Below the pieces are notes generated by a model that was given only the letters and a program-made list of their open reading frames with translations, was not told the origin of the DNA and did no database searches. A program made the translations under genes and the position numbers. DNA of 64,000 nucleotides from an uncultured Gammaproteobacteria bacterium (GTDB lineage Bacteria; Patescibacteriota; Microgenomatia; UBA12405). Numbering within the stretch: position 1 is the first letter of the stretch; every line of letters starts with the position of its first letter. Positions 1 through 16,097 of this stretch are shown here, one piece after another. The stretch lies in NCBI GenBank assembly GCA_964503465.1, contig CAZCYZ010000004.1, positions 16,235 through 80,234 on the forward strand, in the 5' to 3' direction.

Positions 1-72
1 TAAACAAGTACAAGAATTTGTGGGTAATAGTCAGTAGTTACCACGACGTAAATAGTGTTGTTAGAATATCCC

Positions 73-687
73 ATGTGTGGTCGCTATGCCCTTACCCCCG
101 GTGAAGATTTTTTTGATCGATTTTGCCTCGATCCTGATTATGAACGAGGTGGGGATTTTGACCCAAACTTCAATATCGCTCCCGGGTCACTCACTCCTGT
201 TATTACCCAAGACAATCACAACAATCATCTTAGTCTAATGCACTGGGGTTTTATTCCTGCCTGGGCCAAAGACTATAAAGTCCATCACGGGATGATCAAT
301 GCCCGAGCCGACTCAATTGCTATCAAACCATCTTTCAAAAAATCTTTTCAACAACGTCGTTGTCTTGTTCCTGCTAATGGATTTTATGAATGGAAAAAAG
401 ATCATCAAACCAGTACCCCTTTTTATTTTACCCTCAAAGATCAATCCCTGTTTGCTTTCGCCGGATTGTGGGACGAGTGGTTGGACTCCAGTGGCAAAAA
501 ATTTCAATCCTACGCTATTATTACCACCGATCCTAATTCATTGGTTGAACCTATCCATAATCGTATGCCCGTCATTCTCAAACCGGAGGATGAAGCCGTT
601 TGGTTAAATGACGCTACCCCTCAAAGTTCCCTCACTTCACTTCTGACTCCTTATCCTCCGGAGCTAATGACTTTGTCTTCTATCTAG
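73..687 (+). CDS. SOS response-associated peptidase (SRAP/YedK/HMCES family, abasic-site crosslinking)
   Basis: Translation begins MCGRYAL... The N-terminal Met-Cys-Gly-Arg with catalytic Cys2 is the hallmark of the SRAP/DUF159 family, and the length (about 205 aa) fits. The start was trimmed from the ORF-track 55 to the ATG at 73. Confidence 0.8.
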   Translation: MCGRYALTPGEDFFDRFCLDPDYERGGDFDPNFNIAPGSLTPVITQDNHNNHLSLMHWGFIPAWAKDYKVHHGMINARADSIAIKPSFKKSFQQRRCLVPANGFYEWKKDHQTSTPFYFTLKDQSLFAFAGLWDEWLDSSGKKFQSYAIITTDPNSLVEPIHNRMPVILKPEDEAVWLNDATPQSSLTSLLTPYPPELMTLSSI

Positions 688-732
688 TTTGTCCTCATTG
701 ATCTTCGTGTTTTGTTCGGGTAGACTGTCGTT

Positions 733-993
733 ATGCATCTTAAGGTTGATGTCCCCGTTGCCGTTACTTTTGTTTATGATCCCAACGGGGCCAAACTAAC
801 TCCTCAAAAGGTTCGTTGGGATGGTCGGGAATATGACATCACTCGGGTAGGTCTTCATCATCATTTTCGAATTGGTCGTACTCTTCACCACATCTTTTCT
901 GTTGTCTCCCGGGACACTTTTTTCCGTCTCAATCTCAATACCGACAACTTATCCTGGCGGCTCGAGGAGGTCTCTGATGGACTACCCGACTGA
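733..993 (+). CDS. hypothetical small protein (86 aa) upstream of a Y-family polymerase
   Basis: Complete ORF between the SRAP gene and the dinB-like gene, in a cassette-like arrangement. No recognisable motif. Confidence 0.3.
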   Translation: MHLKVDVPVAVTFVYDPNGAKLTPQKVRWDGREYDITRVGLHHHFRIGRTLHHIFSVVSRDTFFRLNLNTDNLSWRLEEVSDGLPD

Positions 994-1024
994 TTTGCCT
1001 TTCAATCCAAAGCCATCGACCATC

Positions 1025-2236
1025 ATGCACATCGATCTTAATTCCTGTTTTGCCACTATCGAGCAACAGGCCAACCCTTTGCTTCGTGGACGTCCCATTG
1101 CTGTTGCCGCCTACACTACTCCCAATGGTTGTATTCTTGCTCCCTCTGTTGAAGCCAAAAAACTTGGTGTCAAAGTTGGCATGCGGGTCAAAGAAGGTAA
1201 GCTCCTTTGTCCTAACCTTCAAATTCTTTCCCCCGACCCATGGAAGTATCGCAACATTCATGTTCAACTTCGCGATTTAATTTCCCGTTACACTGCCAGT
1301 TTCGCTCCCAAATCTATCGACGAGTTTGTTCTAAGTTTTGAAGGTTATCCGGCTTTCAAAATGGGTCTTCATCAAGCCGGTCAAGAAATCAAAACCAAAA
1401 TTAAGCAAGAAATCGGGGATTGGTTAACTGTTTCTATCGGTATTGGTCCAAATCGATTTTTAGCCAAATTGGCTGCAGGTATCAAAAAACCCGATGGTCT
1501 TGAAGAAATCAATCTTGATAATTATCAACAAGTCTACTCTCGACTTACCCTGGTTGATCTAAACGGTATCAAACATGCCAATGCTGTTCGTCTCAATAAC
1601 GTTGGTATCCATACTCTCAAAGATTTTTATCAAGCCCCAGTTGATCAGCTTCACTCTGCCTTCAAGTCGGTTTTGGGTTATTACTGGTATCTTCGTCTTC
1701 GTGGTTGGGAAATTGATGATGTCGAATTTGGTCGTAAGAGTTATGGCAACATGTATTCACTCTCTACCACCCTCTCCGAGCCCGAAGAACTGTCCCCCCT
1801 ACTCCACAAGTTGGTCGAGAAATGTAGTTTCCGTATGCGTCGGGCTGGTTATTCCGCCAAGGGAGTCCATGTCGCCCTTCTCTATCGTGACCATTCTTTC
1901 TGGCACCACGGCTCTGTTCGTCCTCTGCCCCTGTTTAACGCCAACGACATTTATAAATACGCCTATCGCATCATGGTTTATTCTCCTTACCGAAAACCAG
2001 TGGCCAACATCTCCGTCTCTCTGTTTAATTTACAGAAATCTGACTTTTCCCAACTCGATTTATTCAACGAACTGACCCGAAAGATTAAGCTCACCCAAGC
2101 CATTGATGGTATCAACGAAAAGTGGGGTGACTTTGTTATCACTCCGGCCATTATGCTTGGAACCGAAGACAAAGTCCCCGACCGGGTAGCCTTTGGTAAC
2201 ATCAAAGAACTCGAACAGTTTGTTTGTACTGATTGA
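1025..2236 (+). CDS. dinB: Y-family DNA polymerase (DinB/Pol IV-like translesion polymerase)
   Basis: N-terminus MHIDLNSCFATIEQQANPLLRGRPIAV matches the Y-family HVDMDCFFAAVE block, and SIDEFVLSF corresponds to the catalytic SIDEAYLD Asp-Glu pair. The start could alternatively be the ATG at 977. Confidence 0.8.
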   Translation: MHIDLNSCFATIEQQANPLLRGRPIAVAAYTTPNGCILAPSVEAKKLGVKVGMRVKEGKLLCPNLQILSPDPWKYRNIHVQLRDLISRYTASFAPKSIDEFVLSFEGYPAFKMGLHQAGQEIKTKIKQEIGDWLTVSIGIGPNRFLAKLAAGIKKPDGLEEINLDNYQQVYSRLTLVDLNGIKHANAVRLNNVGIHTLKDFYQAPVDQLHSAFKSVLGYYWYLRLRGWEIDDVEFGRKSYGNMYSLSTTLSEPEELSPLLHKLVEKCSFRMRRAGYSAKGVHVALLYRDHSFWHHGSVRPLPLFNANDIYKYAYRIMVYSPYRKPVANISVSLFNLQKSDFSQLDLFNELTRKIKLTQAIDGINEKWGDFVITPAIMLGTEDKVPDRVAFGNIKELEQFVCTD

Positions 2237-2532
2237 GACCTCTGATAAAATCAGTCGTGGAGATTGAAGATCTGGACAAAAGAATCAAAGAGATTGAAAA
2301 ACGCAATCAACGCGTAGAAATAGATAAAGCTTGGGAAACAAGTTTGACCAGAAGATTACTACTTATTATCTTTACCTATCTTAGTATCGGTTTATACATG
2401 AACGCCATTGGTGTCCAGAACCCTTGGCTTAACGCTGTTATTCCCTCACTTGGTTTCCTGCTCTCAACTCTTACCTTGCCATTCTTTAAGAACCTCTGGT
2501 TAACCAAAATTTATAAATATGTCCGAAATTGA
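2233..2532 (+). CDS. small membrane protein (2 TM), stop/start-overlapped with the dinB-like gene
   Basis: Charged N-terminus followed by two hydrophobic helices. The start overlaps the stop of the upstream gene by 4 nt. Confidence 0.4.
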   Translation: MRPLIKSVVEIEDLDKRIKEIEKRNQRVEIDKAWETSLTRRLLLIIFTYLSIGLYMNAIGVQNPWLNAVIPSLGFLLSTLTLPFFKNLWLTKIYKYVRN

Positions 2533-2579
2533 ACGAAAGTTCATCCAACACATTGTCTCAGTGATAATGAAATAACTTT

Positions 2580-3365
2580 ATGGAACAATATCTAGAGTTT
2601 GCAAAAAAATTAGCAAAAAAGGCTGAAGAAATAGCCCTAAAGTATTTCAGTTTTGAAATTGAAAATACCTGGAAAAAAGATAATACCCCATTAACTCAAG
2701 CTGATACAGAAATAAATGATTTGGTTATTAAAAGAATTAATGAAGAATACCCAGAACATAGTATTTATGGAGAGGAAAAAAGCGAGAGGAAAGAAAATTC
2801 AAAATATATTTGGGTTTGTGATCCGATAGATGGAACAATGGCTTTTTCTTGTGGCTTACCTATATTTGTTTTTTCCATAGCCCTAGTTGATCAATCAAAT
2901 GGTTTGCCTGTTCTAGGACTAATAAACGATCCAATAATGAAAAATATGTATTGGGCTTATAAAAACAGTGGAGCATATAGAAATGGCCAAAAAATATCGG
3001 TGTCGACAAGTAGCGATCTAACGAATACGTATTTAAGCACTGGGGCATCGGGAAGAGCAGTAGGTTTTTCAAACTTACCACTAATGAAAACTTTGAGTGA
3101 CAGGAAGTGTGCGGTAATGAGGTACCCTTCTTTTATTTACGGAGGCATCCAGGTAGCTAATGGAAAATATATTGGGGCAGTGTTTTACTCTAAATCTGGT
3201 CATGATGTGGCGGCATTAAAAATTATTACTGAAGAGGCCGGGGGAAAAGTTACGGATTTGAACGGGGAAGAGAGAAGGTATGACGAAGATGGTCTGGGTT
3301 GTGTTGTGTCGAATGGGATATTGCACAATGAATTACTGAAAATTGTTAAGTCTGGAAAAGTATAG
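2580..3365 (+). CDS. inositol monophosphatase family protein (IMPase/SuhB/CysQ-like)
   Basis: WVCDPIDGT motif (the DPIDGT metal-binding signature) and overall IMPase-like length. The gene lies in an AT-rich island. Confidence 0.8.
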   Translation: MEQYLEFAKKLAKKAEEIALKYFSFEIENTWKKDNTPLTQADTEINDLVIKRINEEYPEHSIYGEEKSERKENSKYIWVCDPIDGTMAFSCGLPIFVFSIALVDQSNGLPVLGLINDPIMKNMYWAYKNSGAYRNGQKISVSTSSDLTNTYLSTGASGRAVGFSNLPLMKTLSDRKCAVMRYPSFIYGGIQVANGKYIGAVFYSKSGHDVAALKIITEEAGGKVTDLNGEERRYDEDGLGCVVSNGILHNELLKIVKSGKV

Positions 3366-3403
3366 ATTTGGCAAGTATGGTAGTTTTAAAGGTATAATTT
3401 GGT

Positions 3404-3904
3404 ATGGAACTTAGTGTAAGAAAAATAGCTAAGTATGTTGTGGCTTGTGTTCTTTTTGTTCCAATTTTTTACGTAGTAATTCCTCTTTGGTTAATCCATA
3501 TTGGTAATAATTTTGGTATTCCCATCCTTTCTTTCCCTGGTCAAAAAGTTATTGGGGCCATGATTACTTTAATTGGACTAGCATTATTCCCTTACTGCTC
3601 GTTGATATTTTTTAAGTATGGAAAAAGAACGCCACTATTCACCGAAACTAAAGGTAGTTTCTTTAAGAAAGGTCTTTATCAGTACACCCGAAATCCGATG
3701 TATGTAGGCCATGTTTTAGTAGCCTTGGGAATTTTTGTGTGGAATGGAAGCCTACTTCTTCTTTTGTACACCCTTGCCGGTTGGTTAGTTTTACACTTGT
3801 ATCTAATTCTTGTCGAAGAACCTCAACTAAAGAACAGATATGGTAAGACTTACGAAGAATACAAATATTCAGTCCCTCGCTGGATTGGACTGATTATAAA
3901 ATAG
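3404..3904 (+). CDS. ICMT/PEMT-family membrane methyltransferase (isoprenylcysteine carboxyl methyltransferase-like)
   Basis: Polytopic protein whose C-terminal region reads YQYTRNPMYVGHVLVALG, matching the ICMT/PEMT xRHPxY...G block. Confidence 0.6.
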   Translation: MELSVRKIAKYVVACVLFVPIFYVVIPLWLIHIGNNFGIPILSFPGQKVIGAMITLIGLALFPYCSLIFFKYGKRTPLFTETKGSFFKKGLYQYTRNPMYVGHVLVALGIFVWNGSLLLLLYTLAGWLVLHLYLILVEEPQLKNRYGKTYEEYKYSVPRWIGLIIK

Positions 3905-4083
3905 GCCTTAACGGTTCACTGCCTTCGATATTTCACCAGTGAGAAATAATGGTTAGAACCATTAGGAAAGATGATCGTCCAAATCTCACTTTGACCAGTT
4001 GGTCAAGGGAAATTCCGAAATAGGCACAAATAAATACCACCTTGTTGGCAACAAATGAGAGTATGAAAGGTATAGTAACAGTA

Positions 4084-4653
4084 TCAAGTGACAACCCTTC
4101 TCCGGATGACCAGTAAAATACAAAAACACAGAGTCGCAATTAGGGAATAGGTGGGGAACATTGCTGTTACCAAATTCATTTCTTGCAAAGACAGCAAGAT
4201 GAATCCTTGACGGACCATACCTAGTACCCAAGTAAAGAGAGTTTCTTGTCTCGGTTTGGCCCACGACTTGACGAAAGTGGGCGCAAAGGAAAGGGCATCA
4301 ATGAAAACCACCAGTACCATTGACCAAATTGGCTGGTCAACAATTAACCATAAGGTAATTGCCAATATAGCCATAATTAACGAGGCAATGTCGACCTTTT
4401 TAATTTCCCTAGTACCGTTCTTGAGACTAAACACAAATAAAACCAAACAAATTAAACCCATAGCGAAGTTTGCGTATGATCCTGCCCCAGCACCTTTACT
4501 CCATTGCAATCCAAAGGCGATAAATGATACCAGTGTCCACAGAAACCAACTGATTACGTGTGGTTGGGTTTTCCCTGATATGGTATCTTTAAGGTAGGGA
4601 ACATATCCAATAAATGCCATCACTATCGTCAATATTCCCAACACTTGCTTCAT
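4084..4653 (-). CDS. polytopic membrane protein, function unknown
   Basis: 189-aa protein with 5-6 predicted TM helices. Another ORF (3933-4139) overlaps its 3' end in a different frame, so a frameshift is possible. Confidence 0.35.
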   Translation of the reverse strand: MKQVLGILTIVMAFIGYVPYLKDTISGKTQPHVISWFLWTLVSFIAFGLQWSKGAGAGSYANFAMGLICLVLFVFSLKNGTREIKKVDIASLIMAILAITLWLIVDQPIWSMVLVVFIDALSFAPTFVKSWAKPRQETLFTWVLGMVRQGFILLSLQEMNLVTAMFPTYSLIATLCFCILLVIRRRVVT

Positions 4654-4764
4654 CCAGGAATTATAACAAATACACTTTGTGGTGATCGGCCCCGAGGACG
4701 ATGTATGACCATACCAGAATTTCTTCTGTGATTTGGGACACCAACCAAGCCTTATACTAAAGAT

Positions 4765-5328
4765 ATGTTAGACGCACTCATCCAAAAAATAATCCGAAAG
4801 CGATCTGAAACTGTTGTTGGTCGTGTTTTACCATATCTTGATAATTCTAAAAAAGTTATTGATATTGGTTCCGGTACCGGTGACGTTGCTTATCTTCTTA
4901 AACAACAAGGAATAGATGTCACCCCAGTTGATGTTGCTGATTTCCATGGCCCAAGGTTGGTGAAACCGGTTATTTACGATGGTAGTAAACTTCCGTTTCC
5001 TGACAAGTCCTTTGACATTGCGTTATTACTGATGGTTCTTCACCATACCTCTAACCCGAATGTGGTTTTTTCCGAAGCCGCCAGAGTAGCTAAAGAAATT
5101 ATTGTTATTGAAACCTCTTATACCACCCCAATAAACCGATGGTTTACTATCGTTTCCGATGCCATCGACAACCTCCAAAATATCCATTGGTCATCTTATA
5201 AAACCGACCAAGAGTGGCAGAAGTTTTTTAGGGACAAGGGATTTCAGATTGTTGAAACGCATCGCTATCACGACCACAACTTTGGTCTACCGTTCCTCCA
5301 CATTGCTTACCATCTTAGGAGAAAGTAA
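4765..5328 (+). CDS. class I SAM-dependent methyltransferase
   Basis: VIDIGSGTGDVAYLL glycine-rich motif I, followed by an acidic motif II. Confidence 0.65.
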   Translation: MLDALIQKIIRKRSETVVGRVLPYLDNSKKVIDIGSGTGDVAYLLKQQGIDVTPVDVADFHGPRLVKPVIYDGSKLPFPDKSFDIALLLMVLHHTSNPNVVFSEAARVAKEIIVIETSYTTPINRWFTIVSDAIDNLQNIHWSSYKTDQEWQKFFRDKGFQIVETHRYHDHNFGLPFLHIAYHLRRK

Positions 5329-5329
5329 T

Positions 5330-5965
5330 TTATTTCTTTCTCTTTCTAAATTTCACCCAGACAACATATACCGTCAAAGAAATATAAGCAATTACCCAAC
5401 TTACGACAGTAAATGTCACCGCATTTCTTATTCTCAAAGAGATTAAATACCAGATAACTGTTGCCGGTATCATCCCCAATGTTGATACTACAAAATAGGG
5501 GATAAAGCCCAACTTGGTTAACCCGAAGGCATAAGAGATCACATCGTGAAACTCTTTTAGAAAAAGTCTAAAGACAAATAAAGTTTGTAAACCGTAGTTA
5601 CTTGCCAGTTCATCAATCTTTTCTAAACCGTCTTCACCTGCTAATTTTTTTACTACTCTTCGTCCCCAAATCTTAGCAATCCAAAAATTAGTTATAGATG
5701 CCAACACCGCCGCTGTAAATGCATAAACTACCGACATCTGGCCATAGACATAAAAACCGGCAAACAAAAATGGTGATCCGCTTAGCGGAGCGGCCACATT
5801 GGTAACCCACAAAAAGAAAATCAATAGCATCACCCCCAACGGTCCGGCGTCCTCAATAATTCTTCTAATAGTTTCTTCCGGCACTCTAGCACCAATGATA
5901 ATCATCACTAAAAACACCACCGCAATAAAAACCAGTGGCAAATAACTTTTCTTGATGGCCTTCAT
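5330..5965 (-). CDS. DedA/TVP38-TMEM64-like membrane protein
   Basis: About 210-aa polytopic protein containing the NVAAPLSGSPFLFAGFYVYG glycine/proline segment typical of the DedA family. Confidence 0.4.
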   Translation of the reverse strand: MKAIKKSYLPLVFIAVVFLVMIIIGARVPEETIRRIIEDAGPLGVMLLIFFLWVTNVAAPLSGSPFLFAGFYVYGQMSVVYAFTAAVLASITNFWIAKIWGRRVVKKLAGEDGLEKIDELASNYGLQTLFVFRLFLKEFHDVISYAFGLTKLGFIPYFVVSTLGMIPATVIWYLISLRIRNAVTFTVVSWVIAYISLTVYVVWVKFRKRKK

Positions 5966-6903
5966 AACATTAACTTCCTAATTTCTTCTTCGATATCCGC
6001 CAGTTTCCTTAATTTTTCACTTAATCCCAAGTTGTCTTTTTTCATCAACAAGGTCTGGGCTTCGCCCAACATATCCGCCTGACTGAATTTCAATTTACTT
6101 AGGTTTTCATTATATCTTTTGAAGAAGTTACCATAATCCAATGCTCTTTTAACTCCAAGCGGTAAGGCAAAACCGTTGAGAAAACCGATTTGATAATCTT
6201 TTAGCTCGTTTTTACTAACCAAATCAGCTAAGTGTTTGATCGCTTTACCGTTAATTAAAGCACCGTTGTCTTGTTCTTCCTTATTAGCTTTTTGGTAAAG
6301 CTCCCTAAACCAAACCATCGCTCGCTGGTAGATCTCTTCATCTGTTGGAGAACTGACTCTCGCTGGTTTTGCCCAGTAACGATAGTAACCTCTTTTGTAG
6401 CTGATATCATCTGCTTTCCAAGCTTTAGCTAGTTGATCTTTATTGATAAATACACGAGCAAACCCGGCTGGATCATTAACGTAAACTTTCTCACCCTCAA
6501 TTTTATAAGCCAAAACAAAGTGATCAACTCCAGGTGACTTTGGTCTATCCGGGTTGTAGTCCAAAAAACTCATGTCTAAAGGTCCAATCACCGCCGTTCC
6601 CTCTTTTACCATTTCTCCCAACTCTTCAAATGGAGCCTCACCCGATTCTTTGTTCTTTTCTTCAAATTGAAACCCAAGTATCTCCAGGGCCTTTGATATC
6701 CCCACGTCCGGCTCGCCAGCAACCCCACTAAAAAATGGCAACCCCGATCTTGAGGATACATGGCTACCCAAGCCGACACCGGTTAAGGGTTCAATTAGAT
6801 GTGGTGAAACGTCTTCTCCAATAGACCCCAACATCATCGCTGTTGAGTTGGCATAACAATACCAATAGCCATCAAAGAAGGGAATTTGGTTTGTACAAAA
6901 CAT
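5962..6903 (-). CDS. papain/C39-like peptidase-fold protein (BtrH_N/DUF4872-like)
   Basis: N-terminal YCYANSTAMMLG resembles the C39 dCGpAALAMIL Cys box, and the downstream VDHFVLAY resembles the His box. Confidence 0.35.
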   Translation of the reverse strand: MFCTNQIPFFDGYWYCYANSTAMMLGSIGEDVSPHLIEPLTGVGLGSHVSSRSGLPFFSGVAGEPDVGISKALEILGFQFEEKNKESGEAPFEELGEMVKEGTAVIGPLDMSFLDYNPDRPKSPGVDHFVLAYKIEGEKVYVNDPAGFARVFINKDQLAKAWKADDISYKRGYYRYWAKPARVSSPTDEEIYQRAMVWFRELYQKANKEEQDNGALINGKAIKHLADLVSKNELKDYQIGFLNGFALPLGVKRALDYGNFFKRYNENLSKLKFSQADMLGEAQTLLMKKDNLGLSEKLRKLADIEEEIRKLML

Positions 6904-6924
6904 TACTTATTGTATAACTAATCC

Positions 6925-7362
6925 ATGCCACCTATTTTTTCCAAAAAACTTTCCTGGTTTCTGTTAATTTCTCTTTTTACCTTTGATGCTGTTTTCTCTT
7001 ATTGGGCAGTTGTTTATCGGAACGCCCACGAAGCCAACCCGGCTATTAAAAATATTGTTGAGACCTACCCACTGCTTTATTTTGTTACAGTGCCCGGTCT
7101 TATCCTGATTATGTATCCAGTTTACAAAGGACTATCTCTACTTGCCGGTAAGTTATTCAAGACAGTTGATAAAGAAATAAGAGAAAAAGTTGTTTTAACC
7201 GCTCTAGTAATCTATTGGGTTCTTGGTAACTCATCTGTCAATTTCTCGTTTCTAGCTGGCCACAGACAACCAGCCTACGTTTGGTATTTGACTGCTATTC
7301 TGGCGATTGTCCCAGCTACAATTTATTCTCTTGTTTCCCTTAACCGTAATAATGAGCCATGA
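6925..7362 (+). CDS. membrane protein (4 TM), unknown function
   Basis: Hydrophobic 145-aa ORF; no motif recognised. Confidence 0.4.
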   Translation: MPPIFSKKLSWFLLISLFTFDAVFSYWAVVYRNAHEANPAIKNIVETYPLLYFVTVPGLILIMYPVYKGLSLLAGKLFKTVDKEIREKVVLTALVIYWVLGNSSVNFSFLAGHRQPAYVWYLTAILAIVPATIYSLVSLNRNNEP

Positions 7363-7713
7363 TGAAACACACCGTCTCCACTGGTGGGATAGTCACCAAA
7401 ACAGAAGCTGGTCAAGTAGAACTAGTTCAAACTACATCACTACTTTGAGACACTCCTTTTTTATACTGTCTCATTTGTCTCATTTAGGTACAAAGGGAGA
7501 GTAGAATGAGACAGGGTGTTATAGGGACAGAAAGGTTCCAGACCCACCTGCTCCGCCAAAGTTCGAATGTTCGCGATAGTTCCATGTGATATAGGTAATG
7601 CTATTCCCCTAACCAATAACTCGTTTGTTCCTGCTTAGCTTCAATTTCGTTCCAGACCCATGTCCTCGAGGGGGTGCGACTGATTGTCATACGCGATAGC
7701 AGTATAATTACCC
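7362..7713. promoter_or_regulatory. 352-bp noncoding spacer with TGTCTCATTT x2 / GAGACA inverted repeats and GTTCCAGACCCA x2, at a strand-composition switch point (origin-like)
   Basis: No ORF. Direct repeat tgtctcatttgtctcattt with an inverted partner aatgagaca; the 12-mer gttccagaccca recurs about 105 bp apart. On the + strand C>G to the left and G>>C to the right of this spacer. Confidence 0.35.
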
Positions 7714-8562
7714 ATGACTTGGTATGTATATGCCCTGATTCCCATGGTTTTGTATACGGTTTTCAATATATTGACCAGGGTAGTATTGAGGGACACTGAA
7801 GATACAAAAGCGTTTGCGGTGTTGTTTTATGGCTTAACGGCAATATTTAACTTAGGAATAGGAGTTTTTGAAACCATAGAAGTGGGATCAATTACTCCGT
7901 GGATTGTAATTTTAACCCTGATAGTCTTTGTAAACTGGGGGGTGTTTGGTTTCTTGGAAACAAATGCTAAAAAGTTTACTGAAATATCAACGTTTATGGT
8001 GTTGGTAAAAATTGGGACGGTATTATCGTTCGTATTATCGGTGATTTTTTTGAAAGAGACAATTACGGCAAGAAAGGTGGTGGCACTGGTGATTATGGTG
8101 GGAACAATGGTGGCGCTAATATTGAGAATTTATGGGTCAAGATTGAAGATAGATAGAGGTTTTGCATACTCGGCATTGTTGGGAGTAATACTAGGAATTG
8201 GTTGGACAATTGATAAGGTGGTGGCGGTGGCCTGGGGAGCAGTGCTGTACTCGGCAATTTCGAGTTTTAGCTCAAGTGCATTTGCCATGGCAGTGCCACC
8301 GATTAAGATTGGGTCGCTGAAGAGACAGCTTCGACTGGTAACTCCAATGTTTGTATTTTTGGCAGTGATTAACGCAGTGGCATACTATTTTTTTATGAAA
8401 GCGATGACAGTGGGTGAGGTATCGAAAGTAGTATTAGTGGTGACGTTAAATGAAATATTAACCATAGTTGGGGGAATATGGTTCTTGGGGGAAAAATCGT
8501 TTTGGCTGGAAAAAGTTGTGGCTGGGATAATAATAATCTCGGCATCGTTTCTGCTTTTATAG
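7714..8562 (+). CDS. EamA/DMT-superfamily transporter (10 TM)
   Basis: 282-aa protein with two 5-TM halves, one of four paralogs in the window. Confidence 0.6.
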   Translation: MTWYVYALIPMVLYTVFNILTRVVLRDTEDTKAFAVLFYGLTAIFNLGIGVFETIEVGSITPWIVILTLIVFVNWGVFGFLETNAKKFTEISTFMVLVKIGTVLSFVLSVIFLKETITARKVVALVIMVGTMVALILRIYGSRLKIDRGFAYSALLGVILGIGWTIDKVVAVAWGAVLYSAISSFSSSAFAMAVPPIKIGSLKRQLRLVTPMFVFLAVINAVAYYFFMKAMTVGEVSKVVLVVTLNEILTIVGGIWFLGEKSFWLEKVVAGIIIISASFLLL

Positions 8563-8872
8563 GGGCAAAAAGATTTTTGGGGCACCTGCTTTGCCAATGT
8601 TAGTTATCCTTGTTAGTTAAGGTAATCAACGAAATCGGAACAAAATAAGTTTTGTTAATATTGATGTGATGAATAAAGTAGTTTGGGGAAGCGTGATAAT
8701 GAATGTAACTTTAATGGGGATTGACATAGTGCTGACTGACCGAGCGTTAAGCAATGGTTTCGAGGAAACCATGGTGGCGTTGGCATTAATTGGGGGTTTG
8801 ACGACAGTGGTGGCAAATGCATTTTTGATGGCTAGATTGTATAAAAGACAATAAGCAGATTTATACTAAAGA

Positions 8873-9343
8873 ATGAAAATTTTGGTGGCTTATTATTCAA
8901 AAACTGGTAACACCCGGCGAGTAGCCAAGGAAGTAGCTAAAAGATTAGGGGCTGATATTGATGAAATTAAGGATTTAAAAAACAGAGACGGGATTGGGGG
9001 GTGGATAGGTAGTGGAGTGGATGCATTGAAAGAGAATCTAACAAAAATTGAGGTCAAAAAAGATCCAGGAGAATATGATCTAGTAATAGTAGGGACACCG
9101 GTGTGGGCGGGAAAAACTACTCCAGCAACAAGAACTTATGTAGTCGAAAATAAGAGTAAAATTAGAAAATTAGGAGTGCTGATAACTTCGAGTAACAGCC
9201 AGGCCGAGGAAACAGTGGCCGTGTTTGAAAAACTTTGGAGAGGAAAAATTAATAATTATCAGGGATGGACGAGGGAGGAGCTGAAGAGTGAGAAAATATA
9301 TGAAAGAAAAATGACGGAGTTGGTTAGTGGATTATCTAAATAG
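8873..9343 (+). CDS. flavodoxin-like fold protein (FMN-binding)
   Basis: MKILVAYYSKTGNTRRVAKEVA is the flavodoxin phosphate-binding T/SxTGNT loop. Confidence 0.7.
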   Translation: MKILVAYYSKTGNTRRVAKEVAKRLGADIDEIKDLKNRDGIGGWIGSGVDALKENLTKIEVKKDPGEYDLVIVGTPVWAGKTTPATRTYVVENKSKIRKLGVLITSSNSQAEETVAVFEKLWRGKINNYQGWTREELKSEKIYERKMTELVSGLSK

Positions 9344-9346
9344 GAA

Positions 9347-10192
9347 ATGATCTGGTTACTATCAGCGTTGATAGGGGTGGTAGCGATTTCGGTGGCTAAT
9401 ATCTTCCAAAGAAAATTGATGAAGGATGATAATGGGGACCCAGTGGCGTTGGCAGTAATTTTTCAACTTGGAATAACGGGTTTCACGGCTGTATTTGCGG
9501 TGATCAAGGGGTTTGTGCCGCCGCCGGTGGTTCGATATTGGCCATTTTTCGTGATTAGCGCAATACTTTATGGCCTGGGAACGGTTTTTTATTTTCGAGC
9601 CGCAAAAAAGGTAGAAGCGTCGCAGATAGTAATTTTGTCGACAGTGGGAACTATAGTAGCAATAGTTGCTTCGATAATATTTTTAGGGGAATCATTTTCC
9701 TGGCACCAACTGATTGGAACGGTATTAATTATTGGGGCAATATTAACGGTACAAAAAAGAATCTCACTAACTACTAGCGATGGGGTGTTGGATGCCATTG
9801 TGGGGACATCTTTGTATGGATTGGCAGTAGTAAGTGATACCTACATACTTCACCATTACGACGCAGTGTCGTTTACGCCGATTATGTCGTTATTACCGGG
9901 ACTGGTGTTGATAATACTGAAACCATCAGCGGTAACTAAATTTCCGGGATTGATGTCGATTAAGTACTTAAAAAATATGTTCTGGTATACCTTTTTTTAT
10001 TCTTGTCAGGCGGTAGCTTATTATATGGCCATTGAATTGGGAGCTAATGTATCCCAGATTTCTCCGATATTTCGATCCGAAGTAGTATTAACAATAATTC
10101 TGGCAGCAGTATTCTTAGACGAAAGAGATAACTTGCCAAAAAAGATATTGGCGGCAGGGCTGGCGATTGGTGGTGTGTTATTGATTAAGTAG
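9347..10192 (+). CDS. EamA/DMT-superfamily transporter
   Basis: 10-TM duplicated topology; paralog of the gene at 7714. Confidence 0.6.
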   Translation: MIWLLSALIGVVAISVANIFQRKLMKDDNGDPVALAVIFQLGITGFTAVFAVIKGFVPPPVVRYWPFFVISAILYGLGTVFYFRAAKKVEASQIVILSTVGTIVAIVASIIFLGESFSWHQLIGTVLIIGAILTVQKRISLTTSDGVLDAIVGTSLYGLAVVSDTYILHHYDAVSFTPIMSLLPGLVLIILKPSAVTKFPGLMSIKYLKNMFWYTFFYSCQAVAYYMAIELGANVSQISPIFRSEVVLTIILAAVFLDERDNLPKKILAAGLAIGGVLLIK

Positions 10193-10211
10193 TTAGGCTC
10201 GGCGGTATAAT

Positions 10212-11111
10212 TTGGGAATGGTGAGACCAAAAATGGGTTTAGCGGCGTTGTTCTCGGCGGGAGCGATGTATGGAATGTATGGTATTTACTCCCGAATGAT
10301 TGGAGGTGCTTTTGGAAACTTTAACCAAAACTGGCTGCGGAATATTGCAGTGGCCCTGGTGGCTTTGTTGATAATTTCTATTGGTAAAATAAAGCTTAAA
10401 CCAGTTTACAAAAAGGATATTAAGTGGATTACCCTTTGGTTTTTGTCCAGCTCTTGGGCTACGGTTTTGACATTTATTGCCTTCAACCACTTGAAGGTCG
10501 GCACAGTATATCTTCTGGTTTATTCGGCAATGATTACTTCCGGCTATTTGTCGGGTAAGATATTTTTCGAAGAGAAGATTAATGTAATAAAAATCGTTTC
10601 CCTTTTCCTTGCTTTGGGCGGACTATTGGTGATTTACCGTTTTAGTATCACCAAAGAAGAAGTGCCATATATGATGATGTGCTTGGTTTCAGGTTTAATG
10701 ACTGGTGTCTGGAATACTATTTCCAAAAAGTTTTCTGGTAATTACTCAAATATGCAGCTGGTCTTGATGGATGCCACAGCCATAATTGTTACATCCTTAA
10801 TTGGAGCTATTATTTCCCAAGAGATTTTACCCCAAGTTATTAGCCCTACTAGTTGGGGGTGGCTAGTGGTTTATGCTCTAGCCCAACTTACCAATGTTGG
10901 CCTAGTGGTGTATGGTTTTAAAAATGTAGAAGCACAGATTGGCAGTCTGATCCTGCCGGTTGAGATAATCTTTGCAACACTGTTTGCTTGGTTATTTTTC
11001 GGGGAAAACCCAACAGTGTCCATTGGAGTGGGGGGTATAATGATACTAGGAGCAGCGGCGTGGCCAAGTATGTATTTGATGGCGGAAAAAACAAAAAGGC
11101 CAGTCGGTTAA
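10212..11111 (+). CDS. EamA/DMT-superfamily transporter
   Basis: 10-TM membrane protein in tandem with the previous paralog. Confidence 0.55.
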   Translation: MGMVRPKMGLAALFSAGAMYGMYGIYSRMIGGAFGNFNQNWLRNIAVALVALLIISIGKIKLKPVYKKDIKWITLWFLSSSWATVLTFIAFNHLKVGTVYLLVYSAMITSGYLSGKIFFEEKINVIKIVSLFLALGGLLVIYRFSITKEEVPYMMMCLVSGLMTGVWNTISKKFSGNYSNMQLVLMDATAIIVTSLIGAIISQEILPQVISPTSWGWLVVYALAQLTNVGLVVYGFKNVEAQIGSLILPVEIIFATLFAWLFFGENPTVSIGVGGIMILGAAAWPSMYLMAEKTKRPVG

Positions 11112-11146
11112 CATAGGGGTAAAAGTGTGGTACAAATGCTTACAAA

Positions 11147-12112
11147 ATGAATAATCAGGCATTGGTAGTAGGGTCGGTAGCTTTTGATGTGATCTTTGGG
11201 ATTCATGGTGATATTCGAAAGGAAATTATTGTAAAAAGGGGAAAAATAGATAAAGTAAACATGATGTTTACTGCCAAGGGGAAACAGAGATATTTTGGCG
11301 GGACAGGGGGGAATATTGCTTATGGACTGGGGCTGCTGGGAGAGAAACCATTACTGTTCTCGGTGGCAGGAAAAGATTTTGAACTGGAGTACGGTCCACA
11401 CTTAAAACATAAGCAGGTTGAATTGAGAGTGGTGATTAAAGGTAACGGATACACGGCGTCATACTACGGAATATCAGATGAGAAATATCAACAAATCGGG
11501 ATTTGGCAGCCGGATGTTTATGGGGATAATGTGGAAGAAGTGGGTTTGGCTGACGGTTTGGCTGACGGTGATTTTGAAAAAGTTAAGGTGGCAATTTTTT
11601 CACCCGGAACAGGAATTAGTACCCGAAACCAGATGATGGAACTTAGAAAAAAACAGAGTAAAGCAATAGTGATATTCGACCCGAGCCAGGTGTTGTCAAT
11701 TTTTTATGATAAAACTTTGCTAAAAGAATGTTTGGGAATGACTGATATATTTATTGGCAACGAAACGGAGGTAGCTCAATTGAAAACAGTATTTGGATTG
11801 ACGATTGAAGAAACGTTAGGATTGGGGCTTAGAGCAGTAATTGAAACTAGAGGTGAAGAAGGAAGTGTGATTTATGAAAGATCGGGGGTAACTAAAATAG
11901 GAGCGATTAAGCCAAAAAGATTGGTGGAAACAACCGGAGCAGGAGATGCTTTTCGAGCGGGGTTGATGTATGGTTTGCTAAAAGATAAAACTTTACCTCA
12001 AGCCTGTAAAATCGGGTCTTTTATGGGAGCGAAAAATGTGGAAGAATATGGCGGACAAATGTATCAAACCAACATCAAGGAATTAAATTCGATATTATCT
12101 ATTAAAATTTAA
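11147..12112 (+). CDS. PfkB-family carbohydrate/nucleoside kinase (adenosine kinase-like)
   Basis: GGTGGNIAYGLGLLG (PfkB motif 1) and TTGAGDAFRAGLMYGLL (DTxGAGD motif 2). It lies immediately upstream of ahcY. Confidence 0.75.
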   Translation: MNNQALVVGSVAFDVIFGIHGDIRKEIIVKRGKIDKVNMMFTAKGKQRYFGGTGGNIAYGLGLLGEKPLLFSVAGKDFELEYGPHLKHKQVELRVVIKGNGYTASYYGISDEKYQQIGIWQPDVYGDNVEEVGLADGLADGDFEKVKVAIFSPGTGISTRNQMMELRKKQSKAIVIFDPSQVLSIFYDKTLLKECLGMTDIFIGNETEVAQLKTVFGLTIEETLGLGLRAVIETRGEEGSVIYERSGVTKIGAIKPKRLVETTGAGDAFRAGLMYGLLKDKTLPQACKIGSFMGAKNVEEYGGQMYQTNIKELNSILSIKI

Positions 12113-12118
12113 TCAATA

Positions 12119-13510
12119 ATGAAAGACTACGTTGTTAAAGATATAAAGTTAGCTGATTGGGGAAGAAAAGAAATGATGTTGGCCGAATTAGAGATGCCGG
12201 GGCTGATGGCTTTGAGAAAAAAGTATGGGACCAAAAAACCATTAAAGGGAGCCAGAATTGTAGGGTCACTTCACATGACAATTCAAACAGCGGTATTAAT
12301 TGAGACATTGGTAGAGCTGGGAGCTAAAGTTAGATGGGCAAGTTGTAACATTTTTTCAACCCAAGACCATGCGGCAGCGGCGATCGCCAAAGCGGGAATA
12401 CCGGTGTTTGCGGTTAAAGGGGAAACTTTGGAGGAATATTGGCAATATGTGGATTATATTTTGGACTGGGGGAAGGAAAGTCCCAACATGATCCTGGATG
12501 ATGGCGGGGATCCGACACTATATTTACACTGGGGTTATAGGGCCGAGGAGGAACCGGAGTGGATTGAGAGAAAAGCTGATAATGCCGAAGAGGCCATAAT
12601 TTTAAAACACTTAAAAGAATCGATTAAAAAAGATCCAAAAAGATTCCACGGGTTGATGAAGGAGATTAGGGGGGTGAGTGAGGAAACGACCACGGGGGTA
12701 CATCGGTTGTACCAAATGCAGAAAAAAGGAGAGCTGAAAATACCAGCGATTAATGTGAATGACTCGGTGACTAAGTCAAAATTTGACAACATCTATGGTT
12801 GCCGGCATTCGGCGGTGGATGGGGTAATGAGGGCAACTGATGTAATGATTGCCGGTAAAATTGTAGTGGTGGCGGGATATGGAGACGTGGGGAAAGGAGT
12901 AGCGCAATCGTTTAAAGGGCAGGGGGCGAGAATTGTGGTGACAGAAGTTGACCCGATTTGTGCCCTGCAGGCGGCAATGGAGGGGTACCAAGTGATGAAA
13001 ATGGATGAAGCCTGTAAAATTGGCGATATTTTTATAACGGCGACGGGATGTCAAAAGGTAATAACGGAGCAGCATATGCTACAAATGAAGGACCAAGCGA
13101 TTGTGGGGAATATTGGTCATTTTGATGCGGAAATAGAGGTGGAGGCAATGAGGAAATATAAGTGGGAAAATGTGAAACCACAGGTAGATATAATCCATTT
13201 ACCAAGTAAAAGAAAAATAATTATATTATCCGAGGGGAGGCTGCTGAACTTGGGAAATGCAACTGGCCACCCCAGCTTTGTGATGTCTAATAGTTTTACC
13301 AACCAAGTGTTGGCCCAAATAGAGTTGTTTACTAAAACCAAAAACTATCCGGTGGGAGTGTACACTTTGCCAAAGTTACTTGATGAAGAAGTGGCCAGAT
13401 TACATTTGGCCAAAGTGGGGGCCGAAGTTGATAGACTAACCCAAGAACAAGCTGACTACTTGGGAGTACCGGTATCGGGTCCATTTAAATCGGAAAATTA
13501 TAGATATTAA
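12119..13510 (+). CDS. ahcY: adenosylhomocysteinase (S-adenosyl-L-homocysteine hydrolase)
   Basis: 463 aa with a [11 protein letters not shown]-binding loop and collinear similarity to the AhcY family throughout. Confidence 0.95.
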
Positions 13511-13514
13511 AATA

Positions 13515-14003
13515 ATGACTAATCAACAAAAAGAAACTGAATGCTGTCCAAAGTTTGACCCAAAACCATGGGATGAAAAAATGCTGGAATGGAAGGAGAA
13601 GAAATTTATTAAAGGAAGTGTATGGTGTTTTTGCCATATTCCACTTAACTTTGGCCAAGTGATATCGGGATTGATGAAGAAGGTTGAGACGGCCGGAGCC
13701 AGGGCCGAGGATTGGATGTGCCTGTCGGATCATACTTCAAAATGGAAAATGAATATTTACGTGGCGGTTGATAAAGAAGTGGAGGGAGCGGAAAATGTAG
13801 AATTGTCAGGACAGTTTCTAACCAAAGCTTACGAGGGAGATTTTAAGGACACAGGTAAGTGGTGTGCTGATTTTGAGGAATTTGCCAAAACGAAAAAAGT
13901 AAAAATCGAGAAATTCTATATGTGGTATACCACTTGCCCCAAATGTGCCAAAAAATGGGGCAAGAATTATGTGGTGGTGGTAGGACTAGTCCATGGATTA
14001 TAA
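13515..14003 (+). CDS. Cys-rich hypothetical protein (CCPKFDP...CPKCAKK)
   Basis: 162 aa with an N-terminal CCP and a C-terminal CPKC. No family assigned. Confidence 0.4.
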   Translation: MTNQQKETECCPKFDPKPWDEKMLEWKEKKFIKGSVWCFCHIPLNFGQVISGLMKKVETAGARAEDWMCLSDHTSKWKMNIYVAVDKEVEGAENVELSGQFLTKAYEGDFKDTGKWCADFEEFAKTKKVKIEKFYMWYTTCPKCAKKWGKNYVVVVGLVHGL

Positions 14004-15656: not shown

Positions 15657-15698
15657 GTTATTGAGAGGTTGATAACTGAGAGAAGATATAATAATCGT

Positions 15699-16097
15699 AT
15701 GAACTTGAAACTTTATCTGATCGCGGTTGGAGTGTTTTTAGTAGTTGATATGGTGTGGCTTCTGGTAATCGCCAAGGGTCTGTATGCCAAACATCTGGGA
15801 TATTTGATGACTAAAACACCAAATTTGGCGGTGGCGGGAATATTTTACTTACTCTATGTGGTTGGATTGGTGATTTTTGTACTGGAGCCGGCGATGGAAA
15901 AGAGTTCGATAATTGAAGCTTTGTGGCGGGGGGCATTATTTGGATTGATTGCCTATGCAACTTATGACCTGACCAATTTGGCAACAATTAGGGATTGGCC
16001 ATTTCTGATAACCATAATCGATTTGATTTGGGGGACAGTACTGTCGGGAAGTGTGGCTTCTATAACTTATTGGATTTCAAAGAAAATTGGACTGTGA
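15699..16097 (+). CDS. DUF2177-like small membrane protein
   Basis: 4-TM protein of about 130 aa with a conserved ...RGALFGL..YATYDLTN... segment. The start was trimmed to the internal ATG. Confidence 0.4.
   Translation: MNLKLYLIAVGVFLVVDMVWLLVIAKGLYAKHLGYLMTKTPNLAVAGIFYLLYVVGLVIFVLEPAMEKSSIIEALWRGALFGLIAYATYDLTNLATIRDWPFLITIIDLIWGTVLSGSVASITYWISKKIGL

What the first reader, a model, noticed from the sequence alone, without database searches (positions are those of the whole stretch)
7362..7713. Strand-composition (GC-skew) switch at a repeat-bearing 352-bp spacer: origin-like signature 55 kb from dnaA
To the right (7.7-64 kb) the + strand is conspicuously G-rich whatever the gene orientation. 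Minus-strand genes such as dnaN, the 5'-3' exonuclease and the GT4 at 24484 have pyrimidine-rich coding strands. To the left (dinB, SRAP, 4765-7362) the + strand is C-rich, except for the AT-rich island at 2580-3904. A C>G to G>C transition along the top strand marks diverging leading strands, i.e. a replication origin or the breakpoint of a large inversion. The spacer has direct and inverted repeats (TGTCTCATTT x2 with a complementary AATGAGACA; GTTCCAGACCCA x2) but no canonical DnaA-box cluster. If it is the origin, dnaA and dnaN (62-64 kb, transcribed leftwards) lie 55 kb away and head-on to replication.
Basis: partly seen in the sequence, partly recalled or inferred. Interest (0 to 1): 0.6.

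Follow-up and report, generated by a model that had tools for sequence, protein, structure and literature searches.

The report
Mobile-island edge, not replication origin
The sharp change in G-versus-C strand bias is most likely the edge of a strain-variable block of mobile DNA, inserted at recombinase target sites in a Shapirobacteria chromosome whose own DNA is G-rich on one strand throughout; the likely replication origin lies 55 kb away, between dnaA and dnaN.

Summary
The + strand changes from slightly C-rich to 28% G / 14% C within about 300 bp at 7.5-7.8 kb. On the right, third-codon-position skew is about +0.5 for genes on either strand.

It does not look like an origin:
- The spacer has no 9-mer within 2 mismatches of the DnaA box and no AT-rich tract.
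- With 17 kb more sequence on the left, the left side is a gene-by-gene mosaic with net skew near 0, not a mirrored replichore.
- Two near-identical strains diverge from the window inside the spacer, at 7559/7560 and 7682/7683. Each runs straight into a large serine recombinase gene.
- The first site resembles the 3' end of tRNA-Ser, which two homologous recombinase genes examined overlap.

The uniform G>C bias matches the whole-chromosome strand disparity published for related Microgenomates. In 67 Shapirobacteria dnaN loci, 98.7% of 1-kb bins keep one sign, with dnaA-dnaN on the C-rich strand.

A conserved set of DnaA boxes, a DnaA-trio-like repeat and an AT-rich tract lies between dnaA and dnaN (62571-62852). 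That is the better origin candidate.

Verdict: an ordinary island and attachment-site boundary within an unusual but already described genome-wide bias.

The parts
1..7473 (.). Right-hand 7.5 kb of a strain-variable mosaic block at least 25 kb long (the 'left arm'). Genes: SRAP, dinB, inositol monophosphatase, PEMT-like, methyltransferase, DedA/VTT, YobF_C-like, and a 145-aa protein of unknown function.
   Evidence: Pfam. Per-gene third-position skew ranges from -0.42 to +0.33. Logan contig SRR8925802_4568 is 100% identical and ends at 7473. Its extension to -17.2 kb carries a type I restriction enzyme (HsdR), DUF2130, DUF2726 and an M23 peptidase, and net skew is near 0.
2580..3904 (+). Nested AT-rich segment (inositol monophosphatase and a PEMT-like gene) whose skew is opposite to that of its neighbours.
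   Evidence: GC 0.32-0.38, skew +0.2 to +0.4. Third-position skew +0.33 and -0.04.
7466..7514 (.). Hairpin with arms CTGTCTCATT / AATGAGACAG. The left arm is duplicated in tandem (TGTCTCATT x2, 7467-7484). It lies between the 145-aa gene and the recombinase reading frame seen in strain L004. Its role is unknown.
   Evidence: z = -3.7 on the + strand, -3.9 on the - strand. No T-tract terminator was called. Logan contigs break on both sides of 7474-7515.
7524..7559 (+). Attachment site 1: a remnant resembling the 3' end of tRNA-Ser (degenerate T-arm, acceptor strand, CCA). The strain breakpoint is at 7559/7560.
   Evidence: The ENA contig L004 matches window 6205-7559 at 99%, then continues into a 502-aa large serine recombinase gene. 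Alignments A1 and A4 place it against real tRNA-Ser 3' ends that homologous recombinase genes overlap in L086 and L126. No tRNA is called here.
7484..7559 (-). Stretch that supplies the last 24 codons and the stop codon of the recombinase reading frame in strain L004. In the window only this tail is present.
   Evidence: tblastn: recombinase residues 479-502 match window 7558-7487 at 100%. The closest homologue, P0001, is 487 aa and lacks this tail.
7590..7682 (+). Attachment site 2 (seg2). It contains the second GTTCCAGACCCA copy and an imperfect palindrome at 7653-7682. The strain breakpoint is at 7682/7683.
   Evidence: The sister-strain Logan contig SRR8925812_55511 starts with a 91%-identical copy of 7590-7682. 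It then diverges into a phage-derived block: a 459-aa serine recombinase, an HTH protein, an HNH nuclease, large and small terminase subunits, and a ParB-methyltransferase. The palindrome is I1.
7683..7713 (+). Native flank just upstream of the first EamA gene. It contains the second CGCGATAG copy and a TATAAT hexamer.
   Evidence: Sequence. Strong positive skew starts from here.
7714..64000 (+). Native chromosome with extreme G>C on the + strand whatever the gene orientation (28.15% G, 14.16% C).
   Evidence: Gene order over about 44-64 kb is conserved with other Shapirobacteria.
62571..62881 (-). Best origin (oriC) candidate. Reading from dnaA towards dnaN:
- DnaA-box-like 9-mers at 62881-62873, 62838-62830, 62818-62810 and 62806-62798
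- CCCCCGAAG at 62780-62772
- boxes at 62699-62691 and 62636-62628
- a DnaA-trio-like repeat, CTACTAATACCACTACTG, at 62623-62606
- an AT-rich 30-mer at 62605-62576
- the dnaN ATG at 62570
   Evidence: The module is conserved in order and sequence in 11 aligned Shapirobacteria relatives (A2). It is the densest DnaA-box cluster of the locus in 21 of 24 relatives. There is no skew switch at it.

Best explanation
The spacer is most likely the right-hand boundary of a strain-variable block of mobile and accessory DNA, about 26 kb long, abutting native Shapirobacteria chromosome.

The native DNA carries a lineage-wide mutational bias of about 2:1 G over C on one strand, the same for genes on either strand. 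Acquired DNA arrives with little bias of its own, or with the lineage's bias in either orientation. The skew therefore breaks exactly where native DNA starts (7683 onward).

The spacer holds two target sites for large serine recombinases:
- Site 1 (7524-7559) is a decayed copy of the 3' end of tRNA-Ser. In a 99%-identical strain it is occupied by an element whose 502-aa recombinase gene reads across the junction.
- Site 2 (7590-7682) is joined, in a sister strain, to a phage-derived block carrying a 459-aa recombinase.

The two GTTCCAGACCCA copies are the shared left portions of these two sites. The hairpin lies between the 145-aa gene and the recombinase frame.

Shown: the skew values, the two breakpoints, the recombinase genes next to them, the tRNA-Ser similarity, and the lack of origin features.

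Inferred: that recombination at these sites built the block; that the block is integrated rather than misjoined by the assembler; and that replication starts between dnaA and dnaN and proceeds rightward through the window.
For: 1. Breakpoints.
- L004 is 99% identical to window 6205-7559, then diverges into a recombinase gene with Resolvase, Recombinase and Zn_ribbon domains.
- L088 matches 7590-7682, then diverges into a recombinase, HTH, HNH, TerL (PHROG 38, E = 1e-84), TerS and ParB-methyltransferase.

2. Target site. In both examined homologues of the 502-aa recombinase, the gene overlaps the 3' end of a tRNA-Ser gene (L086 UGA, L126 GCU). Window 7524-7559 aligns to those ends (A4).

3. Circular permutation. 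The sister contig (25,812 bp) starts with seg2, runs through the phage block and then into the window's left-arm genes, collinear at 96%. The unit is therefore circular or flanked by repeats.

4. The left side is a mosaic.
- Per-gene third-position skew runs from -0.45 to +0.36.
- Net skew is near 0 over 24.7 kb.
- The dip in cumulative skew is about 200 G-minus-C counts, against a rise of about 7,700 on the right.
- Its content is restriction-modification and other accessory genes.
- The homologous block in another species from the same sample also has skew near 0, with a tRNA-Asn gene about 100 bp upstream of the contig's near-zero-skew stretch.

5. No origin features in the spacer. It has 0 box-like 9-mers within 2 mismatches (1.7 expected) and is 44% GC.

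6. Native bias.
- Skew is 0.331 on the right arm, the same value I compute from the 29.83% C / 14.97% G reported for the closed Microgenomates genome Ch65, where the bias spans the whole chromosome (PMC7143001).
- 98.7% of 919 1-kb bins in 67 Shapirobacteria dnaN loci share one sign.

7. A conserved origin-type module lies between dnaA and dnaN. The same architecture is seen in L078, and box clusters are seen in the distant relatives L073, L074 and L082, whose cumulative skew minimum falls at the 5' end of dnaA, about 1-1.5 kb upstream of the dnaA-dnaN spacer.
Against: - I never saw the left end of the block, an empty site, or both junctions of either element.
- The 24.7 kb of the block seen in the window's own strain carries no recombinase gene.
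- The switch has origin polarity (C-rich to G-rich), and I could not read beyond -17 kb. An origin somewhere in or left of the mosaic is not excluded.
- Part of the block (the M23 cluster) has a 75%-identical counterpart in another Shapirobacteria species, so some of it may be conserved chromosome rather than mobile DNA.
- Exact crossover positions are not defined. The palindrome in site 2 is centred about 15 bp left of the observed breakpoint.
- The link between left arm and right arm rests on short overlaps (7516-7559) in a region where the assembly graph branches.
Confidence: 0.68

Rival explanations
1. The spacer, or the mosaic next to it, is the replication origin. It could be the place where origin and terminus adjoin in a chromosome replicated almost entirely in one direction. 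The 8-kb C-rich block (-0.4 to 7.5 kb) would then be the short counter-replichore.
For: - The polarity is right for an origin, and the change is sharp.
- 75% of coding bases right of the switch lie on the G-rich strand.
- Kadnikov et al. proposed closely spaced origin and terminus for related genomes (PMC7143001).
- Pseudoalteromonas chromids have their terminus next to their origin, and foreign DNA was proposed to have inserted between the two (PMC7858055).
Against: - The spacer has no DnaA-box-like 9-mer even at 2 mismatches, no AT-rich tract and no trio-like repeat.
- Third-position skew in the block is heterogeneous and about half the native magnitude. Beyond it the sequence is mosaic, not strongly G-rich as an arriving fork would predict.
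- The spacer sequence is accounted for by two recombinase-linked breakpoints.
- A conserved origin-type module exists elsewhere.
Confidence: 0.07
2. The switch is one end of an inversion of native DNA. The -0.4 to 7.5 kb block was flipped, possibly by recombination between inverted sites, with no foreign DNA involved.
For: - SRAP, dinB, DedA and the methyltransferase have third-position skew of -0.27 to -0.42. That is the sign expected for native genes turned round.
- Recombinase target sites lie at the boundary.
Against: - The magnitude is lower than native (+0.5).
- The block is interrupted by segments of other sign and GC content.
- No inverted copy of the spacer repeats is found at the other end or anywhere in the 81 kb.
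- Further left is also non-native in composition.
- The strain differences seen are insertions or replacements, not inversions.
Confidence: 0.1
3. The join is an assembly artefact. The left arm would be a separate molecule of about 26 kb (circular) or a locus elsewhere, stitched to the chromosome through a short shared repeat in the spacer.
For: - Logan contigs from the same run stop at 7473 and restart at 7516.
- The sister contig is circularly permuted relative to the window, and its length fits one unit to within about 0.7 kb.
- Two contigs of similar size (26,291 and 25,812 bp) both end in this region.
Against: - L004 (another study) carries left arm, hairpin and site 1 contiguously to 7559.
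- Logan contig _333515 carries 7516-10241 contiguously, and the sister contig carries about 7530-7682. Every piece of the path is therefore seen at least twice.
- The contig breaks are equally well explained by strain polymorphism within 7474-7515.
Confidence: 0.1

Closest known systems
Whole-chromosome G/C strand disparity in Microgenomates: Ca. Chazhemtobacterium aquaticus Ch65, Ca. Collierbacteria, Ca. Beckwithbacteria (Kadnikov et al. 2020, PMC7143001)
   Same: One strand has about twice as much G as C. Skew here is 0.331; 0.33 is what I compute from Ch65's 29.83% C / 14.97% G. In both cases the bias does not come from gene orientation. Here there is no sign change at dnaA; the paper does not mention dnaA.
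   Different: - Here only 56 kb, plus 21-kb dnaN loci of relatives, could be read, so whole-chromosome extent is not shown.
- Shapirobacteria are not among the lineages reported in that paper.
- Here 75% of coding bases lie on the G-rich strand, whereas Ch65 has no such gene bias.
- The paper reports no local breaks and no mobile elements.
Genomic islands and prophages integrated at the 3' ends of tRNA genes
   Same: - Strain-variable block with deviating composition.
- A recombinase gene at the very end of the element.
- A tRNA-3'-end-like sequence at the junction, and repeated copies of that sequence.
   Different: - The recombinases are large serine recombinases. To my knowledge most tRNA-targeting integrases are tyrosine recombinases.
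- The site in the window is a decayed remnant, not a functional tRNA gene.
- The recombinase reading frame runs into the tRNA or remnant.
Attachment sites of large serine integrases such as phiC31, Bxb1, A118 and SPbeta (from my own knowledge)
   Same: The recombinase gene lies next to the attachment site at the element's end. There is a sharp breakpoint with no long homology between partners. Site 2 has an imperfect palindrome.
   Different: No attP/attB pair or central dinucleotide could be defined. Only one junction per element was seen.
Unidirectionally replicating Pseudoalteromonas chromids (PMC7858055)
   Same: A replicon with one-signed skew, where origin and terminus adjoin and foreign DNA was proposed to have inserted between them.
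   Different: Those are RepA-type secondary replicons with experimental coverage data. Here it is a main chromosome with dnaA, and there are no coverage data.
Bacillus subtilis-type origin between dnaA and dnaN: DnaA boxes, DnaA-trios and an AT-rich tract (Richardson et al. 2016, from my own knowledge)
   Same: Window 62571-62881 has the same order of elements next to the dnaN start, and this order is conserved in relatives.
   Different: Skew does not change sign there, and dnaA and dnaN lie on the C-rich strand.

Membership tests
DnaA-dependent bacterial origin (oriC), tested on the spacer 7362-7713 | Cluster of DnaA boxes | tested here: not met
   0 nine-mers within 2 mismatches of TTATCCACA; the window's density predicts 1.7.
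DnaA-dependent bacterial origin (oriC), tested on the spacer 7362-7713 | AT-rich unwinding element | tested here: not met
   Spacer GC is 44.3% against 42.1% for the window. The lowest 40-nt GC is 0.30, a value reached or undercut by 10% of all 40-nt windows.
DnaA-dependent bacterial origin (oriC), tested on the spacer 7362-7713 | Genome-scale extremum of cumulative GC skew, with mirrored arms | tested here: inconclusive
   It is only a local minimum in the 81 kb available. The left 24.7 kb has net skew near 0 rather than about -0.33. The rest of the genome could not be read.
DnaA-dependent bacterial origin (oriC), tested on the spacer 7362-7713 | Peak of read coverage (marker frequency) | not testable with these tools
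   No read data were available.
Large serine recombinase attachment site | The breakpoint between strains lies directly next to a large serine recombinase gene | tested here: met
   7559/7560 is next to the 502-aa recombinase gene. 7682/7683 is about 340 bp from the 3' end of the 459-aa recombinase gene.
Large serine recombinase attachment site | Homologous recombinases sit at equivalent target sequences elsewhere | tested here: met
   L086 (94% identical recombinase) lies on tRNA-Ser(UGA), and L126 (58% identical) on tRNA-Ser(GCU). Alignment A4 covers these and the window site. Only two homologues were examined.
Large serine recombinase attachment site | Imperfect dyad symmetry around a central crossover dinucleotide | tested here: inconclusive
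   There is a palindrome at 7653-7682 (72% complementary), but the breakpoint is at its edge. No clear dyad surrounds 7559/7560.
Large serine recombinase attachment site | Both junctions of the element, or the empty site, are observed | tested here: not met
   Only one junction per element was found. The contigs end within or just past the recombinase gene.
Genomic island / plasticity zone | Content varies between close strains | tested here: met
   L087 and L088 are 96% identical in shared parts, but L087's HsdR block is replaced by a phage block in L088. L004 has an extra element.
Genomic island / plasticity zone | Composition departs from the host chromosome | tested here: met
   Per-gene third-position skew is -0.45 to +0.36, against a uniform value of about +0.5 in native DNA.
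Genomic island / plasticity zone | Bounded by direct repeats or a tRNA gene at both ends | tested here: inconclusive
   The right end has a tRNA-Ser-like remnant and two related sites. The left end was not reached. The sister contig begins with a copy of site 2.
Whole-chromosome strand disparity of Microgenomates (Kadnikov 2020) | About 2:1 G:C on one strand, independent of gene orientation | tested here: met
   28.15% G and 14.16% C. Third-position skew is +0.52 for plus-strand genes and +0.48 for minus-strand genes.
Whole-chromosome strand disparity of Microgenomates (Kadnikov 2020) | Same sign over the entire chromosome (monotonic cumulative skew) | not testable with these tools
   Only 56 kb could be read here. 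In 67 relatives, 945 kb around dnaN has 98.7% of 1-kb bins with one sign. Whole contigs could not be fetched.
Origin of the DnaA-box / DnaA-trio / AT-rich type, tested on 62571-62881 | DnaA-box cluster, then a trio repeat, then an AT-rich tract, conserved in relatives | tested here: met
   There are 8 box-like 9-mers within 2 mismatches, all on one strand; CTACTAATACCACTACTG; and a 30-mer in the lowest-GC part of the spacer (lowest 40-nt GC 0.20). The order is conserved in alignment A2. Reading the repeat as DnaA-trios rests on my own knowledge of that motif.
Origin of the DnaA-box / DnaA-trio / AT-rich type, tested on 62571-62881 | Skew changes sign at the origin | tested here: not met
   Skew has the same sign on both sides in the window and in 24 relatives.

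The most novel reading that the evidence does not exclude
Shapirobacteria chromosomes, like the Microgenomates genomes of Kadnikov et al., are copied essentially in one direction. If so, the start point can be named: the conserved module of DnaA boxes, trio-like repeat and AT-rich tract between dnaA and dnaN. The productive fork would leave towards and through dnaA, against the transcription of dnaA and dnaN. The fork towards dnaN would be blocked or never set up. Mobile islands such as the one ending at 7.5 kb would then be the only places where the strand rule is broken.
Probability: 0.35. Interest if true: 0.65.

Novelty: new member of a known kind. Interest (0 to 1): 0.35.

Why it matters
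For the finding itself, little. A skew break at the edge of mobile DNA is routine, and calling it an origin would mis-set the genome start and any growth-rate estimate based on coverage.

The context matters more. It extends the published one-strand G/C disparity of some Microgenomates to Shapirobacteria (67 genomes sampled around dnaN). It also shows that an origin-type module sits inside uniform skew, with dnaA and dnaN on the C-rich strand. That gives a concrete, testable place and direction for the proposed one-directional replication of these small genomes.

Tried and rejected
- AdoHcyase as a synteny anchor in metagenome contigs: it returned mostly 61-65% identical sequences, many from TARA and other marine datasets, and the closest hits were on very short contigs.
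- A chimeric 2,391-aa query built from ten junction-proximal proteins: it returned nothing and used the last homologue search. As a result I could not fetch the region syntenic to the junction from relatives with long contigs.
- Exact look-up of dinB from its TTG start: not on record, because the called gene starts later.
- IMG/VR scans: no relatives of the terminase or the 459-aa recombinase. The 502-aa recombinase gave only two contig-end fragments.
- Rfam and ARAGORN on the spacer: no tRNA or other RNA family, only chance-level hits.
- Promoter and terminator scan of the spacer: nothing above chance.
- PADLOC on left-arm proteins of unknown function: no hits.
- Hairpin as an invertible loop, or a change in copy number of TGTCTCATT, as the cause of the Logan contig breaks: neither predicts the first differing base at 7474, so the cause of the breaks stays open.
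- A terminus reading: rejected, because the polarity (C-rich to G-rich) is the opposite of a terminus.

Full report
**Observation**

The skew change is real, sharp and at the stated place.
- In 2-kb windows the + strand has GC skew of -0.10 to -0.24 over 4-8 kb, and +0.2 to +0.47 from 7 kb to the window's end.
- At 300-bp resolution it goes from -0.13 (7201-7500) to +0.41 (7801-8100).
- It does not come from gene orientation. Right of 7.7 kb, third-codon-position skew on the + strand averages +0.52 for 40 plus-strand genes and +0.48 for 15 minus-strand genes. dnaN is +0.71 and dnaA +0.75.
- The right arm is 28.15% G and 14.16% C, skew 0.331.
- There is no DnaA-box cluster.

**Organism and context**

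DnaN is 60-68% identical to that of many Candidatus Shapirobacteria MAGs (Microgenomates, Patescibacteria/CPR). Gene order from dnaA-dnaN through a VirB4/TraC/PrgI-like cluster, the 5'-3' exonuclease, a GT4 and thioredoxin reductase is conserved in those genomes. The right arm is therefore native chromosome.

**The left side is not a mirrored replichore**

Logan contigs from run SRR8925802 are 100% identical to the window. One of them let me read 17.2 kb further left.
- Over the 24.7 kb left of the spacer, net skew is about 0.
- Per-gene third-position skew scatters from -0.45 to +0.36.
- The dip in cumulative skew that ends at 7.5 kb is about 200 G-minus-C counts, against a rise of about 7,700 on the right.
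- The content is a type I restriction enzyme (HsdR), DUF2130, DUF2726, an M23 peptidase, glyoxalase, HAD and other hydrolases, methyltransferases, SRAP, dinB, and an AT-rich nested segment.
- A homologous block in another Shapirobacteria species from the same sample also has skew near 0. A tRNA-Asn gene lies about 100 bp upstream of that contig's near-zero-skew stretch.

**The spacer holds two recombinase-linked breakpoints**

Breakpoint 1, at 7559/7560:
- An ENA contig from another study (L004) matches window 6205-7559 at 99%. It then continues into a 502-aa large serine recombinase gene whose last 24 codons are window 7558-7487.
- The closest homologue (94% identical, 487 aa) lacks that tail. 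It ends inside a tRNA-Ser(UGA) gene instead.
- A 58%-identical homologue ends inside tRNA-Ser(GCU).
- Window 7524-7559 aligns with those tRNA 3' ends (GGTTC.A..CCCACCT.CTCCGCCAA; A4). It is not a functional tRNA.

Breakpoint 2, at 7682/7683:
- A sister-strain contig (SRR8925812_55511, 25,812 bp) begins with a 91%-identical copy of window 7590-7682 and diverges exactly at 7682/7683.
- It diverges into a 459-aa serine recombinase, an HTH protein, an HNH nuclease, the large and small terminase subunits and a ParB-methyltransferase.
- That block then runs into the window's own left-arm genes, collinear at 96%.
- So the sequence that lies right of the left arm in the window lies left of (phage block + left arm) in the sister strain. 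The unit is therefore circular or flanked by copies of the spacer. Its length fits one such unit to within about 0.7 kb.

The strong native skew starts at 7683.

**Origin features**

The spacer has none:
- no 9-mer within two mismatches of TTATCCACA (1.7 expected);
- 44% GC, with no unusual AT-rich tract.

The dnaA-dnaN spacer has them:
- Together with the 3' end of dnaA (62571-62881), it has eight box-like 9-mers on one strand, a CCCCCGAAG element, a CTACTAATACCACTACTG repeat next to a box, and a 30-nt AT-rich tract abutting the dnaN start. I read the repeat as DnaA-trios on my own knowledge of that motif.
- This order is conserved in 11 aligned relatives (A2).
- It is the densest DnaA-box cluster of the 21-kb locus in 21 of 24 relatives.
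- The same full architecture occurs in L078. Box clusters in the dnaA-dnaN spacer occur in the distant Patescibacteria L073, L074 and L082, whose weak skew has its cumulative minimum at the 5' end of dnaA, about 1-1.5 kb upstream of that spacer.

**Yet skew does not switch there in Shapirobacteria**

- In 24 full-length loci, skew is -0.2 to -0.6 on the dnaN coding strand on both sides.
- Over 67 loci (945 kb), 98.7% of 1-kb bins are negative and 0.1% exceed +0.1.
- The position of dnaA and dnaN on the C-rich strand, far from any switch, is therefore lineage-wide.

**Link to the literature**

- Kadnikov et al. 2020 (PMC7143001) described closed Microgenomates genomes (Ch65, a Collierbacteria and a Beckwithbacteria genome) in which one strand has 29.83% C and 14.97% G along the whole chromosome. 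The cumulative skew is monotonic. They proposed closely spaced origin and terminus, or unidirectional theta replication. I compute a skew of 0.33 from those percentages, the same as here.
- Unidirectional replication with the terminus next to the origin is experimentally shown for Pseudoalteromonas chromids (PMC7858055).
- The right arm of the window is thus an instance of a described phenomenon in a lineage not named in that paper.

**Conclusion**

- The switch is best explained as the edge of a mobile or accessory block, at serine-recombinase target sites, abutting native DNA that carries a genome-wide strand bias (confidence about 0.68).
- An origin at the spacer is unlikely (about 0.07).
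- A plain inversion (about 0.1) and an assembly misjoin through the short shared repeat (about 0.1) remain possible. Logan contigs break at 7473 and 7516.
- The most interesting open reading is that these chromosomes replicate in one direction from the dnaA-dnaN module, with the fork running against dnaA and dnaN transcription. Coverage analysis of the public reads would settle it.

Noticed in passing
window 62571-62881; L013-L070 at about 9600-10000: A conserved origin-type module between dnaA and dnaN: several same-strand DnaA boxes, CCCCCGAAG, a TAG-repeat (trio-like) element and an AT-rich tract at the dnaN start. It sits inside uniformly signed skew, with dnaA and dnaN on the C-rich strand, in every Shapirobacteria locus examined.
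   Followed up: yes
L078 and L083 (dnaN 37% identical; GC 0.46-0.47): Another Patescibacteria lineage also has uniform strong skew (+0.2 to +0.3) across 21 kb around dnaN. There dnaA and dnaN lie on the G-rich strand, the opposite relation to Shapirobacteria. L078 has the same origin-type module (boxes, trio-like repeat, AT-rich tract); for L083 only the boxes were checked.
   Followed up: partly
window 25867-26691 (+): A 274-aa retron-type reverse transcriptase (Pfam RVT_1; PADLOC retron RT families, E down to 3e-77). Its skew is native-strength, so it has been resident for a long time. The 196 bp upstream (25672-25866) could encode its non-coding RNA; I did not examine it.
   Followed up: partly
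L086 2304-2390; L126 11432-11520: In both members examined of this widespread family of large serine recombinases (more than 7,000 database hits), the reading frame runs 30-54 nt into the 3' end of a tRNA-Ser gene on the opposite strand. In L126 the element carries a restriction-modification system, an OLD-family nuclease and a transposase.
   Followed up: partly
window 2580-3904: An AT-rich segment (GC 0.32-0.38) with inositol monophosphatase and a PEMT-like gene. Its positive skew contrasts with the C-rich block around it, which suggests a nested, separate acquisition.
   Followed up: partly
window 51603-59214; relatives' loci at about 12-20 kb: A PrgI-like, TraC-like and VirB4-like (870 aa) gene cluster plus a 1,114-aa M23 peptidase protein. 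The PrgI-like, TraC-like and VirB4-like genes are conserved in position next to dnaN across Shapirobacteria (VirB4 about 80% identical). The M23 protein was detected in only some relatives, at 31-43% identity.
   Followed up: partly
window 63363: The Logan contig that covers 10215-63363 ends inside dnaA, not at a gene boundary. The cause is unknown; strain variation or a repeat are possibilities.
   Followed up: no
window 7714-11111 and 16848-17720: Four EamA-family transporter paralogues. Three lie directly right of the junction with a flavodoxin gene between them. A Logan contig break falls at the start of the third (about 10215-10241).
   Followed up: no
L088 145-8482: The phage-derived block of the sister strain has lysogeny and packaging genes (recombinase, HTH, HNH, TerS, TerL, ParB-methyltransferase), but I recognised no structural genes in its 8.4 kb. 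It may be a remnant or a satellite-like element.
   Followed up: partly
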